A DNA stretch of 33,695 bases from a virus (lineage: Duplodnaviria; Heunggongvirae; Uroviricota; Caudoviricetes), in IMG/VR virus record IMGVR_UViG_2737471863_000001. One strand, written 5' to 3'. The notes under the pieces are model-generated. The model saw nothing but the letters and a program-made list of their open reading frames with translations, made no database searches and was not told where the DNA came from. The translations under genes were made by a program, and so were the position numbers. Every line of letters starts with the position of its first letter. The stretch's first letter is position 1. This document shows positions 29,335 through 33,695 of the stretch, piece after piece.

Positions 29335-29859
29335 TTAAATACCGGCTTCCTGTTCAAACGGAATAATGGAAAAATCTTCAATTCCAGACTTAACTGTAAT
29401 TCCGGCAACACCTGCGACCGCTTTCGGTTCCAGTAAAATCGCTTCCTTGTTGATTTCCTGTTTCGTGCGAATAAAGCGTTGCAGGCCAAGACGCTCCAGC
29501 GTTTCCATCACCGCATCCACACCGCGAATACTTACCGATGGTGGGCGCTGACGCCATGACACATCGCCGGTTACCAGGTTCGCCGTCTTCACCTTGCCGC
29601 CGTTCGTCAGTTCGTCGCGGTTCGCTTCACACCATCCCTGAACGCCTTTTGAAAGGGTTTCGATACTGGTTTTTAGCGGCGCAATCTGTGAGGCGTATTT
29701 CTCTGTAATTTCAGCGATAGCGTCATTCATTTCCGTTTCAAGTCGTGCCGCTTCGCGTTGCAGGTCACCAATCCGGCGGATATCACATACCACGGCATCG
29801 CGGGACTGTGGAACATAAGCCGCTGCGGCATTCTTGATTCGTTTTGCTGGTTTAGCCAT
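29335..29859 (-). CDS. gam: Gam host-nuclease inhibitor (DNA-end-binding, Ku-like)
   Basis: 174 aa, the Mu Gam length; ATG 29859 with AGGAG SD; sequence closely resembles recalled Mu Gam. Confidence 0.85.
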   Translation of the reverse strand: MAKPAKRIKNAAAAYVPQSRDAVVCDIRRIGDLQREAARLETEMNDAIAEITEKYASQIAPLKTSIETLSKGVQGWCEANRDELTNGGKVKTANLVTGDVSWRQRPPSVSIRGVDAVMETLERLGLQRFIRTKQEINKEAILLEPKAVAGVAGITVKSGIEDFSIIPFEQEAGI

Positions 29860-29879: not shown

Positions 29880-30170
29880 TTAATATTCGCTGTATACAAT
29901 GCTGGATACAGCACGATTGCTTAATTCCATCTTTTGGGCAATGACATGAATAGCCAGCCCTTCTTTATAAAGTTCACGACACAAATATTTGTCGTGCTCA
30001 CTGACCCGGTATGCACACAACGATATTCCGTGCCTTCTGGCATGTGCCTGTAGGGCGGTTGGGGCAACGTTCAGTTTTTTCGCCATTTCCTCGACGGTCA
30101 TTTTCCCGACACTGGCTTCGATAAATTCCCGGTCTTCGCGTGACCATCTTTTGCGAGTGATTATCATCAT
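29880..30170 (-). CDS. small putative DNA-binding protein with helix-turn-helix-like segments
   Basis: 96 aa from ATG 30170 with AGGAGG SD; MTVEEMAKKLNVAPTALQAHARRHGI and LAIHVIAQKMELSNRAV resemble HTH motifs. Confidence 0.45.
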   Translation of the reverse strand: MMIITRKRWSREDREFIEASVGKMTVEEMAKKLNVAPTALQAHARRHGISLCAYRVSEHDKYLCRELYKEGLAIHVIAQKMELSNRAVSSIVYSEY

Positions 30171-30186
30171 GCCTCCTTCCCTGAAA

Positions 30187-30456
30187 TTAATGTTTGGCTG
30201 CATCCGGGTTATACCGGAATAACTCGCCTTCGGCTTCCAGCCCAAGTTCTCTGGCTGACTTCAACAACTCCTGGGTTGCTTTTTCAATAATTTCAGGAGC
30301 CATGCTCTTGATAATGCCTGCCATCACGTCATGCGGTCCGGTTTGCTCCTTAGGAGACTGTTCTTCCAGTTGCACACTCATTCCTACAAAGAAACCTCCT
30401 TTTTTCTGAAACTCAACATCTTCCATGCGGTTAAATTCAAAGATTACTTTTGCCAT
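30187..30456 (-). CDS. hypothetical early-region protein
   Basis: 89 aa from ATG 30456 with GAGGAA SD; track ORF opens at TTG 30510. Confidence 0.4.
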   Translation of the reverse strand: MAKVIFEFNRMEDVEFQKKGGFFVGMSVQLEEQSPKEQTGPHDVMAGIIKSMAPEIIEKATQELLKSARELGLEAEGELFRYNPDAAKH

Positions 30457-30488
30457 TTTGTTATTCCTCACAAATAAATAAGCCGTTA

Positions 30489-30716
30489 TTAACGCCAGAT
30501 AATCTGGCAACCATTAAGGCGGGCCGTCCATACGGAACGGGCAACCCCTGATTTATGCTCCATAATCCTGACAGCGTTTCTGACCAGCTCCGGTGGCGGG
30601 CAGGTAATTTCAAGCACCGGGCGGGCCACGCCCAGCCAGGATTCGTTGACGTGGCTGCCGCGCTCCTGTAACCAGCTCTTTACTTCCGTTGCCATTTTGA
30701 TATTCCGTGACATCAT
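30489..30716 (-). CDS. small protein in the position of Mu kil
   Basis: About 75 aa from ATG 30716 (AAGGAGA SD overlapping the B stop); assignment by position and size only. Confidence 0.35.
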
Positions 30717-30729
30717 GATTTCGCTCTCC

Positions 30730-31668
30730 TTACGTGCGCAGCAGGGTTGAAATATCAACGTCGAGGTCTAATTCACGGAAAGCCTGACGCAGATAATCTT
30801 CATTAACACGTTCACCTTTGCCGTGGGCGGTCATGGCCGCAAGGCGCAGCGAGTGGTTCAGGATGCGAAGTGCACCTGGTTTTTGCGCAATCTGCTGTAA
30901 TAATTCCCGCTCGTTTTCGCCGGTAATTTGCCAGGCATCCGCAATGGCCTTTACATCATCAATTTTGGTTTTATTGATTGCCGTCCGTTTGGCAATACGG
31001 GAAAACAGTCGGGCAAATTCAACCGTTCTGTTACCACCGGTCATGTTTGAATAAACGCGGTGATTCCCCATCAGAACAAGGCCAATACGGGCGGATTCCT
31101 GCAACAGGCGGAGTTCTTCCAGAACTTCAGCGCCAAGATGATCAGCTTCGTCGATAATGACCAGCCCCTGCGTACCTTCAAGGCGGCGTCGCAAAGCGCG
31201 GGAGAGCGGCCCTTTGCGGCGCGGTGCGTCATTCATTCCCAGTTCATACGCCAGTTCAGTGAGACATTCCAGAACACTGGCGCAGGATGGGGTAATGGTG
31301 ATCATCCAGACATTGTTATTGGTGCGACGAAATTCGCGGGCTGCTTCAGTTTTTCCCACACCTGGATTACCGCAGATAACAGAAATACTTTCAGTCAGAC
31401 TGGCAAAACGCATACTCGTCCAGATTTGGCGTGCTGTTCTGGTTTCCACAAAACGCGGTGGTTCTGGCAGCTCTGCGGCACGGTGATAGTTCTCCAGCCA
31501 GCGTTCCAGCGTCTGCGCAACACGTTCATTGTCGCCGTTGTACTTGTTATTCACGAATGCGCTTAACGTTCCTGCGGCCACGCCGGACTCGCGGGCAATT
31601 TGTGCATAAGTAGCTTTTTCACTTTCTACAAGCGTGCGCAGTCCTGCGCGAATATCGGAAATATTCAT
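30730..31668 (-). CDS. B: MuB-type ATP-dependent target DNA activator
   Basis: 312 aa, the Mu B length; Walker A motif [11 protein letters not shown] 31668 with GAGG SD; immediately downstream of A. Confidence 0.9.
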
Positions 31669-31706: not shown

Positions 31707-33695
31707 TTAAATGGCTTTTTTACGTCTGTTCTGTTCCAGAATATCCAGCGAATGATTCAGATATTCATCACGATCAGTTTCATATTCCTCATCGGGTTCC
31801 TGGTATTTCACCTGCACCGTGTTACCGGAAGGCCGGAAAATACCAACAACTCTTGATTCTGGTGCTGCTGGTTCGGCTATCTGCGGCAGCAGTTCAGCAA
31901 CTTCCAGCGCGTCCATTTGTTTCTGCGCCTTAATGGCTGCTTTAGTTGCAGATTTCAGTTGTTTCTGGCGGCGGCGATATTCACGGCCTGCCGCAGCATC
32001 ATTAAACGCAACAGGTGCCAGACATTCCGCTTCACAGATAAACCGACCGTCCAGGGTGTAGCAATAAACCGTGCTGTGTAGCTGCTGCGGATCAAATCTG
32101 ACCACAACTTTTTTCACGCCGGCATTCATTAACGCCATGTTGTAATAAACGTTTTTTGCACCTTTAAGGGAGCCGCCAACTTTAAGCGTAAACTCGCCTT
32201 TGCGTGAAACGTTCACCGCCTCGGCAGGCAGCAACAGCATCCGTTTTTGTTCTTCGGTCGGCTTACGCACAATCGTTCTGGCGTATTCACGCTCAAAAAC
32301 GTCATCAAACGAAAGTTTGCCTCCGCACATTTCTGTTTCACGACCTGTTCTGGCATTGAACATCGCAACACCTTCAGCAAGGGTTTTCAGAAACAGCTCT
32401 GCATCAACAGCACGGTCGCCATAGTTATCAGGTTTTGCCTGCGGATTTGGCCCCGTATATGCGCCAGCCAGTGCCGGATGCTTATCAACGTATTCCTCAA
32501 GCCCACCAACACCGAAAGCACGTTCAACAGGTTTTGCCTGGCCCCAGCCTTTACCGGCAACAACGCTTGTCCAGTGCATTTTCGCGCCCATCAGTAAAAA
32601 CAGCCCCTTTGGATCGTCCTCTTTCACCTTAAAGCGGTAACGATTGGGCGCGCCCCCCGTCAGCCATTTATTCGCTGCACCACGGGTGTTATCGATGGTG
32701 ATGTGAAAATCCTCCGGGATGCCGTAGCGTGTCACCACATCCATGAACGAGAGGCGAATTGAATCGATGTTCTCGCTTACATCGCAGCGCCAGCCCAGAA
32801 TTTTTCGTGTTTTCACATCCTGCCAGAACCATGTTTTCGGGCGGATCACATCACCGTTAAACCAGCGTACAAAAACGTTATGCAGATAACCGTCGCCGTT
32901 GATCCACTGCATGGCGTCCAGGTGTTCCACAGTTCGCTGTTGTGCCGGTATCAGATGCATCAGTGCATGTTCACCTTCACGGCAGGCAACAACCATTGCC
33001 TCGTCCAGTTGCTGAATCCGGCGAAAGGCCGTGGCACGGGAGGGAATACTCCAGCCATGCTCGCGGGCTGCCAGTTCCAGACGCTCATAACATTTGCGGA
33101 AGGCGGGTTTTTCTGGTCGCAGATAATCTGCAATCAGAAACTGCCAGGCATCCTCGTCAAATTCACTTTTGTGAACGTTGCGACGGGATGCACCACGTCC
33201 ATCAACAAGCGCAGCCGCCCAGTCAGGCTTCGCAAACTTCTGTACCTGGTAATATTTGTCTCGCAAAGTGGATGCGCTGACCTGGTAATGTCCTGCAACG
33301 GTCGCAAATGCCGTTTTCGTTGAAACCCCCTGGTTCAGCATTTCGTCTGCAGCCTGAACCGCAGGCAACCATTTTTCAGCAAGTCTGCGCTGGGAATCGC
33401 TGGCGTTATCCCATTTGCTCCACAGTGCCTCACGATCATAATCATGGGCTTCCAGCGTGGGGCGGGCGATTTCAAAACGGCCCTGGCTTGTTTCAATACC
33501 TCCTTGTTGCAATAAAATTTCAGCACGTAATGCAACAGGAAATGATTTGATATTGAATTCAAATGATACACCTTTAGTACCTGTAACTTGCCTAAACACC
33601 CAGCCTTCTCTTTGTGCCTTACGTGTAATGTTAGTTGCTTGCTTTGGCAAACCAGCAAAACCAAGCAATTCTTTCGCTGTATACCACTCTTTCAT
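31707..33695 (-). CDS. A: MuA-type DDE transposase
   Basis: 662 aa; ATG is the last 3 nt of the window (cat 33693-33695); most of the protein matches recalled Mu A, N-terminal about 70 aa differ. Confidence 0.9.

What the first reader, a model, noticed from the sequence alone, without database searches (positions are those of the whole stretch)
29880..30716. Three small early ORFs between B and gam, including an HTH-like protein
A kil-position 75-aa ORF, an 89-aa ORF and a 96-aa protein with two HTH-like segments each have a strong SD. The HTH protein could be an additional early regulator not present in the classical Mu description.
Basis: inference. Interest (0 to 1): 0.4.

Follow-up and report, generated by a model that had tools for sequence, protein, structure and literature searches.

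The report
Mu early genes kil, gp7, gp9
The three small genes between B and gam are real and are the already catalogued Mu/D108 early genes kil, gp7 (D108-type allele) and gp9/E8; gp9 does have a two-domain helix-turn-helix fold but is also present in classical Mu, so the finding is mostly ordinary.

Summary
On the minus strand, between B (30730-31668) and gam (29335-29859), lie three tightly packed ORFs, each with a Shine-Dalgarno sequence and each under purifying selection. They are:

- **Kil**, 75 aa, 85% identical to Mu Kil.
- **An 89-aa protein**, 77.5% identical to D108 gp7.
- **A 95/96-aa protein**, 86% identical to Mu gp9 (E8, Mup09).

Three points go beyond the existing annotation:

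- This prophage lacks Mu gp6 and gp8.
- Among about 160 overlapping Mu-like loci fetched through gp9 or Kil, Kil and gp9 form a usually conserved frame around a variable slot holding gp6, gp7 and gp8.
- The 89-aa protein links through an intermediate subfamily to Mu gp7, which is "Gnarl2", a small protein reported to alter O-antigen.

The functions of gp9 and of the 89-aa allele remain untested. Interest is low to moderate.

The parts
30489..30716 (-). kil: 75-aa basic protein (pI 10.3), orthologue of Mu/D108 Kil
   Evidence: 85% identity to Mu and D108 Kil. phrog_2743 E 1.8e-39 over the full length. dN/dS 0.09 against D108. Sits directly after B in every Kil-bearing locus examined that reaches B. 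Conserved LEITCPPxEL...GCxIIWR motif down to 43% identity.
30726..30731 (-). Shine-Dalgarno AAGGAG of kil, overlapping the B stop codon
   Evidence: Read from the sequence. 9-nt spacing to the ATG.
30187..30456 (-). 89-aa acidic protein (pI 5.0): D108-type allele of gene 7, a divergent member of the Mu gp7/Gnarl2 family
   Evidence: 77.5% identity to D108 gp7. phrog_2230 E 1.7e-37. dN/dS 0.27. Linked to the Mu gp7 (gnarl2) family through an intermediate subfamily by hhalign, probability 96-97%, or 86-87% after removing the shared N-terminal 13 residues. AF2 model is low confidence: beta-hairpin plus a long helix.
30465..30469 (-). Shine-Dalgarno GAGGA of the 89-aa ORF
   Evidence: Read from the sequence. 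8-nt spacing to the ATG.
29880..30170 (-). gp9/E8 orthologue: 96 aa from the first ATG, or 95 aa from the ATG at 30167. Basic (pI 9.2) protein with two tri-helical HTH domains
30172..30178 (-). Shine-Dalgarno AAGGAGG of the gp9 orthologue
   Evidence: Read from the sequence. 1 nt before the first ATG and 4 nt before the second, which favours the second ATG as the start.
30730..31668 (-). Context: transposition ATPase B, upstream flank
   Evidence: 312-aa ORF. RefSeq calls it 'AAA family ATPase' in the identical prophage.
29335..29859 (-). Context: gam (host nuclease inhibitor), downstream flank
   Evidence: 174 aa, aligns to Mu/D108 Gam. dN/dS 0.10.

Best explanation
The interval is the start of the 'semi-essential' part of the early (Pe) operon of a Mu/D108/SfMu-like E. 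coli prophage. It carries three real genes that are already catalogued in this phage group.

(1) Kil is a small basic host-killing protein. In Mu it is reported to make cells spherical.

(2) The second gene is the D108-type allele of gene 7. It encodes a small acidic cytoplasmic protein of the same fast-evolving family as Mu gp7 (Gnarl2). I infer that it acts on a host envelope or O-antigen pathway by binding a host protein, as reported for Gnarl2. This is not shown for this allele.

(3) The third gene is gp9/E8, made of two three-helix HTH domains joined by a linker of about 10 residues. The N-terminal module is Myb/GcrA-like and variable. The C-terminal module is resolvase/Hin-like and strongly conserved. 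I infer that it binds DNA as a bipartite reader, in the manner of the Tc3/paired domains or Cbp1, and acts as a non-essential early accessory regulator.

Shown here: gene identity, coding status, fold and synteny. Inferred: DNA binding, its target, and the O-antigen role.

Compared with Mu and D108, this prophage lacks gp6 and gp8. Kil and gp9 are the usually conserved ends of a variable cassette slot.
For: Identity:
- BLASTP gives 85%, 77.5% and 86% identity to Mu/D108 Kil, D108 gp7 and Mu gp9, with the same gene order as the annotated Mu and D108 records.
- The region is 100% identical to prophages in E. coli RM11911, RM13745 and XJ34, where RefSeq calls the same three CDSs.

Coding status:
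- dN/dS is 0.09-0.27.
- Each ORF has an SD sequence.
- No internal promoter or terminator on the coding strand.

gp9 fold:
- AF2 model pLDDT 79 with two 3-helix bundles.
- The top Foldseek PDB hit is the Tc3 bipartite DBD, probability 0.97.
- The family profile hits Cbp1 and the gamma-delta resolvase HTH in PDB sequences.
- An exhaustive HMMER search finds 873 representative proteins at E <= 1e-3. Many carry 4-10 tandem copies of the unit, and sampled relatives pass Pfam thresholds for HTH_23 and Sigma70_r4_2.

Frame and slot:
- In the 80 gp9-fetched IMG/VR loci plus 5 of 6 genome loci, the order is B-kil-[gp6]-[gp7 allele]-[gp8]-gp9. One Vibrio locus is a non-Mu context.
- The minimal kil-gp9 layout, with an 11-17 nt gap, occurs in about 25 loci.
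- 69 of 79 untruncated Kil-fetched loci carry gp9.

Gene 7 family:
- hhalign of intermediate subfamily A7 against the Mu gp7 family gives probability 96.3%, and against the window family 97.0%.
- Mu gp7 (NP_050611) is gnarl2, which down-shifts O-antigen bands and sensitises ECOR strains to T5 (PMC12373910).
Against: - No experiment exists for gp9 or for the D108-type gene 7 allele.
- The window gp9 itself stays just below every Pfam HTH threshold.
- In the gp9 family the best-conserved residues lie in helices 1-2 of the C-terminal module, not in its recognition helix. That would also fit a protein-binding surface.
- A direct profile comparison of the window gene 7 family with the Mu gp7 family aligns only residues 1-13, and nothing once those residues are trimmed. 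The homology therefore rests on one five-sequence intermediate subfamily.
- The AF2 model of the 89-aa protein is low confidence (pLDDT 62).
- Ten Kil-bearing phages lack gp9, so the Kil-gp9 pairing is not obligatory.
Confidence: 0.75

Rival explanations
1. gp9 uses its HTH folds for protein-protein contacts rather than sequence-specific DNA binding. It could bind RNA polymerase or sigma in the way sigma region 4 or GcrA do. Alternatively it could modulate or neutralise Kil, making kil-gp9 a toxin/modulator-like pair.
For: The most conserved surface is helices 1-2 of the C-terminal module (mean column identity 0.78-0.80), against 0.63 for its recognition helix and 0.44-0.49 for the N-terminal module. 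There are structural matches to sigma region 4 and to GcrA, which binds sigma70. In about 25 loci kil and gp9 are directly adjacent with an 11-17 nt gap, and they co-occur in 69 of 79 Kil loci.
Against: The protein is basic (pI 9.2). The best structural matches are bona fide DNA-binding domains: IstA, Tc3, resolvase, Myb and Cbp1. Ten Kil-bearing phages do without gp9. No toxin-antitoxin or defence model matches.
Confidence: 0.2
2. The 89-aa gene is an unrelated cassette that merely occupies the gene 7 slot. Recombination would have occurred at the shared SD and first 8 codons, so its function would have nothing to do with Gnarl2 or O-antigen.
For: At the DNA level Mu and the window share only 32 nt, covering the SD and the first codons of gene 7. 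Direct hhalign aligns only residues 1-13, probability 42%. With the N-terminus trimmed the direct comparison gives 0.5%. There is a weak sub-threshold Pfam hit to RraB (E 0.051).
Against: An intermediate 85-aa subfamily in the same slot matches both families over nearly their full length (probabilities 96.3% and 97.0%). It still matches at 86-87% after the shared N-terminus is removed, while unrelated controls score 0.1%. BLASTP from subfamily D gives E 2.7e-9 to Mu gp7 and 2.9e-10 to the window type. The proteins have the same length class (85-89 aa), and all families end in His.
Confidence: 0.2
3. One reading: the HTH protein is a novel extra early regulator that classical Mu lacks.
For: No function or regulator name has ever been attached to it. 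RefSeq genomes call it 'hypothetical protein'.
Against: It is 86% identical to Mu gp9/E8, which is annotated in AF083977, M64097 and NC_000929, and also occurs in D108 and SfMu.
Confidence: 0.02
4. One or more of the ORFs is a chance reading frame and not a gene.
For: The ORFs are small (75-96 aa) and carry no curated Pfam or NCBIfam family.
Against: dN/dS is 0.09-0.27. Each has an SD sequence. Homologues conserved down to 30-50% identity sit in the same position in other genera. PGAP calls the same genes independently.
Confidence: 0.02

Closest known systems
Bacteriophage Mu Kil (gp5; phrog_2743)
   Same: 85% identical, same length, same position directly after B, same conserved C-terminal GCxIIWR motif.
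   Different: Eleven substitutions relative to Mu Kil. Its phenotype is untested. The database label 'septation inhibition' appears borrowed from lambda Kil, which is unrelated. Mu kil is reported to give spherical cells (PMC3961180).
Mu gp9 / protein E8 (Mup09); PHROGs phrog_323 'transcriptional regulator, D5-like'
   Same: 86% identical, same position immediately upstream of gam, same two-HTH layout.
   Different: The first ~8 residues differ because the upstream gene 8 is missing here. No member of this clade has a demonstrated function. I did not test whether phage T5 D5 really belongs to the same family; that label is PHROGs' own.
Bipartite or tandem HTH DNA binders: Tc3/mariner transposase DBD (1u78), Cbp1 CRISPR-repeat binding protein (2lvs), R2R3 Myb, GcrA DBD (5yiu), resolvase/Hin HTH
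   Different: Sequence identity is only 9-20%. There is no catalytic or other domain attached. The relative orientation of the two modules is not predicted (pTM 0.47). The DNA target is unknown.
Gnarl2 = Mu gp7 (E6/Mup07, NP_050611), Silas et al., Nat Commun 2025 (PMC12373910)
   Same: Same slot in the operon, same size class (87 vs 89 aa), acidic, shared N-terminus MAKVI.E. Homology through an intermediate subfamily.
   Different: No direct detectable similarity beyond residue 13. The O-antigen and T5-sensitisation phenotype was shown only for the Mu allele, and its direct target is unknown even there.
D108 gp7 (YP_003335755; phrog_2230)
   Same: 77.5% identical over all 89 residues, same position.
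   Different: In D108 it is flanked by gp6 and gp8, both absent here.

Membership tests
Mu Kil family (phrog_2743) | Full-length sequence similarity to Mu Kil | tested here: met
   85% identity. phrog_2743 E 1.8e-39, residues 1-75 of 75.
Mu Kil family (phrog_2743) | First gene after transposition gene B in the early operon | tested here: met
   13-nt spacer after B. Same position in every Kil-bearing locus examined that reaches B.
Mu Kil family (phrog_2743) | Expression kills the host and rounds the cells | not testable with these tools
   Known only from the literature on Mu (PMC3961180, citing Waggoner 1989).
Lambda Kil / Rac KilR FtsZ-inhibiting peptides | Sequence relatedness to lambda or Rac Kil | not tested
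   The literature states there is no significant similarity between the Mu, lambda and Rac kil products (PMC3961180). I did not run the comparison myself.
Mu gp9/E8 family | Sequence similarity and position directly upstream of gam | tested here: met
   86% identity over 95 residues. 20-nt spacer to gam. Conserved order in the gp9-fetched Mu-like loci.
Helix-turn-helix DNA-binding domains (Pfam HTH clan: HTH_23, Sigma70_r4_2, HTH_Tnp_1, GcrA) | Score above a curated Pfam HTH threshold | tested here: inconclusive
   The window protein's best hit is HTH_Tnp_1 at 22.5 bits, below the 24.1 cut-off. Remote relatives pass: P0068 scores 29.2 on HTH_23 (cut-off 24.6) and 26.0 on Sigma70_r4_2 (cut-off 25.7).
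Helix-turn-helix DNA-binding domains (Pfam HTH clan: HTH_23, Sigma70_r4_2, HTH_Tnp_1, GcrA) | Tri-helical HTH fold, present twice | tested here: met
Helix-turn-helix DNA-binding domains (Pfam HTH clan: HTH_23, Sigma70_r4_2, HTH_Tnp_1, GcrA) | Binds DNA | not testable with these tools
   Inferred from the fold and the basic pI of 9.2. No experiment is known.
Mu gp7 / Gnarl2 family | Detectable homology to Mu gp7 (NP_050611) | tested here: inconclusive
   The direct profile-profile comparison aligns only residues 1-13 (probability 42%). Via intermediate subfamily A7 the probabilities are 96.3% and 97.0%. With the N-terminus trimmed they are 86.4% and 87.0%, and controls score 0.1%.
Mu gp7 / Gnarl2 family | Same operon slot, between kil (or gp6) and gp8 or gp9 | tested here: met
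   Architecture survey. The Mu-type and D108-type alleles occupy this slot as alternatives; none of the tabulated layouts carries both.
Mu gp7 / Gnarl2 family | Expression shifts O-antigen bands and sensitises hosts to T5 | not testable with these tools
   Shown only for Mu gp7 (PMC12373910). D108-type alleles were not found in that paper's supplements.
RraB (regulator of RNase E activity B, PF06877) | Score above the Pfam gathering threshold | tested here: not met
   14.6 bits against a cut-off of 23.3, E 0.051. The AF2 model is too uncertain to test the fold.
Known anti-phage defence or toxin-antitoxin components (PADLOC) | Match to any PADLOC model | tested here: not met
   No hits for Kil or the 89-aa protein. 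Only noise-level hits for gp9 (E 0.004-0.02).

The most novel reading that the evidence does not exclude
Kil and gp9 are the conserved frame of an accessory-gene hotspot in enterobacterial Mu-like phages. The 89-aa protein is a re-targeted allele of the Gnarl2 family that remodels the O-antigen or envelope of a different set of hosts. gp9 is a monomeric bipartite HTH reader, with a conserved C-terminal anchor module and a variable N-terminal specificity module. It would control host or phage genes during early lytic growth, which would give a function to a Mu gene left unassigned since it was sequenced.
Probability: 0.25. Interest if true: 0.5.

Novelty: already known. Interest (0 to 1): 0.25.

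Why it matters
Mu is a textbook transposable phage, yet most of its semi-essential early genes still have no function. This analysis does not reveal a new system. It also gives three testable leads:

- gp9 is a two-HTH protein with a strongly conserved C-terminal module.
- Kil and gp9 bracket a variable cassette slot.
- The D108-type gene 7 product belongs to the same family as Gnarl2, the recently described O-antigen-modifying small protein. Allelic variation at this slot may therefore track host surface diversity.

It also flags that the database label 'septation inhibition' for Mu-type Kil is probably a misnomer.

Tried and rejected
- **RraB lead for the 89-aa protein.** The Pfam hit is E 0.051, well below threshold, and the AF2 model is too poor (pLDDT 62) to test by fold search. 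Dropped.
- **Direct homology of the 89-aa family to Mu gp7.** hhalign aligns only 13 residues. The link was rescued only through an intermediate subfamily.
- **Internal duplication in gp9.** Local alignment of the two halves scores 21, and 159 of 500 shuffles reach that score. There is no sequence evidence that the two HTH modules are recent duplicates.
- **Word-indexed protein search for gp9.** It found only Escherichia and Salmonella clusters. The wider family needed the exhaustive HMMER search.
- **First search for related loci attempt.** An 11-sequence alignment was too diverse and the call failed. It was repeated with 6 sequences.
- **Negative scans.** Rfam on the whole window gave nothing. 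The promoter/terminator scan found nothing on the coding strand. PADLOC gave nothing meaningful. NCBIfam gave only sub-threshold hits.
- **Literature searches.** Searches for the arm and cim functions and for transposable-phage annotation papers gave nothing usable on gp9. One call failed on term length.
- **Kil-gp9 as an obligatory pair.** Rejected, because 10 of 79 Kil loci lack gp9.
- **gp6 or gp8 elsewhere in the window.** tblastn finds nothing better than E 0.056.

Full report
**Observation**

The window is a Mu-like prophage read on the minus strand. Transposase A lies at 31707-33695, B at 30730-31668 and gam at 29335-29859. Three ORFs lie between B and gam.

| ORF | Coordinates (minus strand) | Length | Shine-Dalgarno | Spacing to ATG |
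|---|---|---|---|---|
| Kil | 30489-30716 | 75 aa | AAGGAG | 9 nt |
| 89-aa ORF | 30187-30456 | 89 aa | GAGGA | 8 nt |
| gp9 | 29880-30170 | 96 aa | AAGGAGG | 1 nt (first ATG), 4 nt (second ATG at 30167) |

- The spacers between genes are 13, 32, 16 and 20 nt.
- The second ATG of the third ORF is the likelier start. PGAP uses it in the 100%-identical E. coli RM11911 prophage, and most homologues are 95 aa.
- No sigma-70-type promoter or intrinsic terminator is predicted on the coding strand, as expected inside the long early transcript.
- dN/dS against D108 is 0.09 for kil, 0.27 for the 89-aa ORF and 0.25 for the third ORF, with gam at 0.10. All three are under purifying selection.

**Identity**

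- Megablast against phage genomes hits D108, SfMu, Mu and Yersinia Mu-like phages, but the 1.5-kb query corresponds to about 2.1 kb in those records.
- The annotated Mu and D108 records carry kil, 6, 7, 8, 9 and gam in this interval.
- BLASTP shows that ORF1 is Kil (85% identity). ORF2 is D108 gp7 (77.5%), with no hit to Mu gp7. ORF3 is Mu/D108 gp9, formerly E8 (86%).
- DNA alignment shows that gp6 and gp8 are missing. Spacers of 29 and 38 nt stand in for 241 and 471 nt of D108. With Mu, only 32 nt covering the SD and the first codons of gene 7 are shared.
- tblastn finds no gp6 or gp8 anywhere in the window.

The HTH protein is therefore not an addition to classical Mu. It is Mu gene 9.

**The HTH protein (gp9)**

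- Pfam gives about twenty sub-threshold HTH hits falling in two segments, residues 5-49 and 66-91. The best is HTH_Tnp_1 at 22.5 bits against a cut-off of 24.1.
- PHROGs gives phrog_323 'transcriptional regulator, D5-like', E 1e-26.
- The AlphaFold2 model (pLDDT 79) has two three-helix bundles joined by a linker. Its pTM of 0.47 reflects an undefined orientation between the two domains.
- Foldseek against the PDB ranks the Tc3 bipartite DNA-binding domain first (probability 0.97). Cbp1, AraC-type and mariner domains follow.
- A family profile weakly matches Cbp1 and the gamma-delta resolvase HTH among PDB sequences.
- The word-indexed search found only Escherichia and Salmonella clusters.
- The exhaustive HMMER search found 873 representative proteins at E <= 1e-3. 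These include 91-112-aa relatives sharing the motif HDxWLCRELYxEGLxxxVIAEKMELS, and many long proteins with 4-10 tandem copies of the unit. Sampled relatives pass Pfam thresholds for HTH_23 and Sigma70_r4_2 and approach or pass GcrA.
- BFVD contains many small two-HTH phage proteins, nearly all unnamed.
- Weaker homologues occur in Pantoea, Xanthomonas and Vibrio phages.
- Across 18 diverse family members the C-terminal module is much better conserved (mean column identity 0.78, 0.80 and 0.63 for its three helices) than the N-terminal module (0.44-0.49).

I conclude that the HTH assignment is sound. DNA binding is inferred and no target is known.

**Synteny**

- I fetched 6 genome loci and 80 IMG/VR loci through gp9. 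The order in the Mu-like loci is B-kil-[gp6]-[gp7, Mu type or D108 type]-[gp8]-gp9, with gam usually next. One Vibrio locus is a different, non-Mu context.
- The window's layout, B-kil-ORF2-gp9-gam, occurs in 5 of these loci and in dozens of E. coli genomes.
- In Klebsiella-, Raoultella- and Pluralibacter-type phages, kil and gp9 (43-52% identical to the window proteins) are often directly adjacent, with an 11-17 nt gap.
- Of 79 untruncated loci fetched through Kil, 69 carry gp9 and 10 do not. The two fetched sets overlap in the contigs they sample.

Kil and gp9 are thus a usually conserved frame around a variable slot.

**The 89-aa protein**

- It belongs to phrog_2230, of unknown function. 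Its homologues are all from E. coli or Salmonella. The AF2 model is of low confidence.
- The occupant of the same slot in Mu, gp7 (E6/Mup07, NP_050611), is 'gnarl2' in Silas et al. (PMC12373910). Its expression down-shifts O-antigen bands and sensitises ECOR strains to T5. Its direct target is unknown. I did not find the D108-type allele in that paper's supplements.
- Direct hhalign of the two families aligns only residues 1-13.
- Among the slot occupants collected from the loci is an 85-aa subfamily, MAKVVFEFKSDF.... By BLASTP it matches both families, E 2.7e-9 and 2.9e-10. By hhalign it matches both with probabilities of 96.3% over 82 columns and 97.0% over 85 columns.
- After the shared N-terminal 13 residues are removed, the links remain at 86.4% and 87.0%. 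The direct comparison stays negative, and unrelated controls score 0.1%.

I take the 89-aa protein to be a divergent allele of the gp7/Gnarl2 family. I put homology at about 0.8. Whether it shares the function is open.

**Kil**

The PHROGs and RefSeq label 'septation inhibition' matches the lambda Kil story. The literature states that the Mu, lambda and Rac kil products are unrelated, and that Mu kil produces spherical cells (PMC3961180, citing Waggoner et al. 1989). The semi-essential region is described as largely uncharacterised (PMC3820752; PMC4553209).

**Verdict**

These are real genes, correctly spotted and already catalogued. The claim of novelty is refuted. What remains of interest is the two-HTH architecture of an unassigned Mu gene, the frame-and-slot organisation, and the link between D108-type gp7 and Gnarl2.

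Noticed in passing
window 1-25000: The late (structural) region has almost no megablast similarity to Mu or D108. Only com/mom (about 603-1453, 88.7% to D108) matches, plus 13% coverage at 72% identity to Klebsiella phage Kp4866-3. The early region is 83-90% Mu/D108-like, so the prophage is a mosaic.
   Followed up: partly
window 33396-33695 (-): The first 100 residues of transposase A are 99% identical to SfMu, 95% to D108 and only 56% to Mu. This prophage therefore has the SfMu/D108-type N-terminal (operator/enhancer-binding) domain.
   Followed up: partly
window 30457-30488 and 30171-30186 (-): Mu gp6 (Cys-rich, 76 aa) and gp8 (139 aa) are absent. Only short spacers remain where D108 has 241 and 471 nt, and neither gene is found elsewhere in the window.
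   Followed up: yes
window 29880-30170 (-), residues 58-94: In the gp9 family the C-terminal HTH module is far better conserved than the N-terminal one. The most invariant residues sit in its helices 1-2 (LCRELYKEGL, IAxKME), not in the recognition helix, which may indicate a conserved protein contact.
   Followed up: partly
L133, L135, L143, L145, L148, L150 (about 4200-5400): Kil-bearing Mu-like phages without gp9 carry other small genes after kil. One is an unrelated 84-aa MAKITAYAWASGLIEFG... family. Some have a 205-aa protein where Gam would be.
   Followed up: no
L008 5575-6186 (Vibrio plantisponsor): A 203-aa protein carries a Cys-rich N-terminal region followed by gp9-like HTH modules. 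It sits in a non-Mu prophage-like region just upstream of a 692-aa ORF of unidentified function, so the module also occurs outside transposable phages.
   Followed up: no
window 1 and 33695: The window ends exactly on the ATG of gene A and begins exactly on the stop codon of a 167-aa minus-strand ORF (1-504) lying beyond mom. That ORF was not identified.
   Followed up: no
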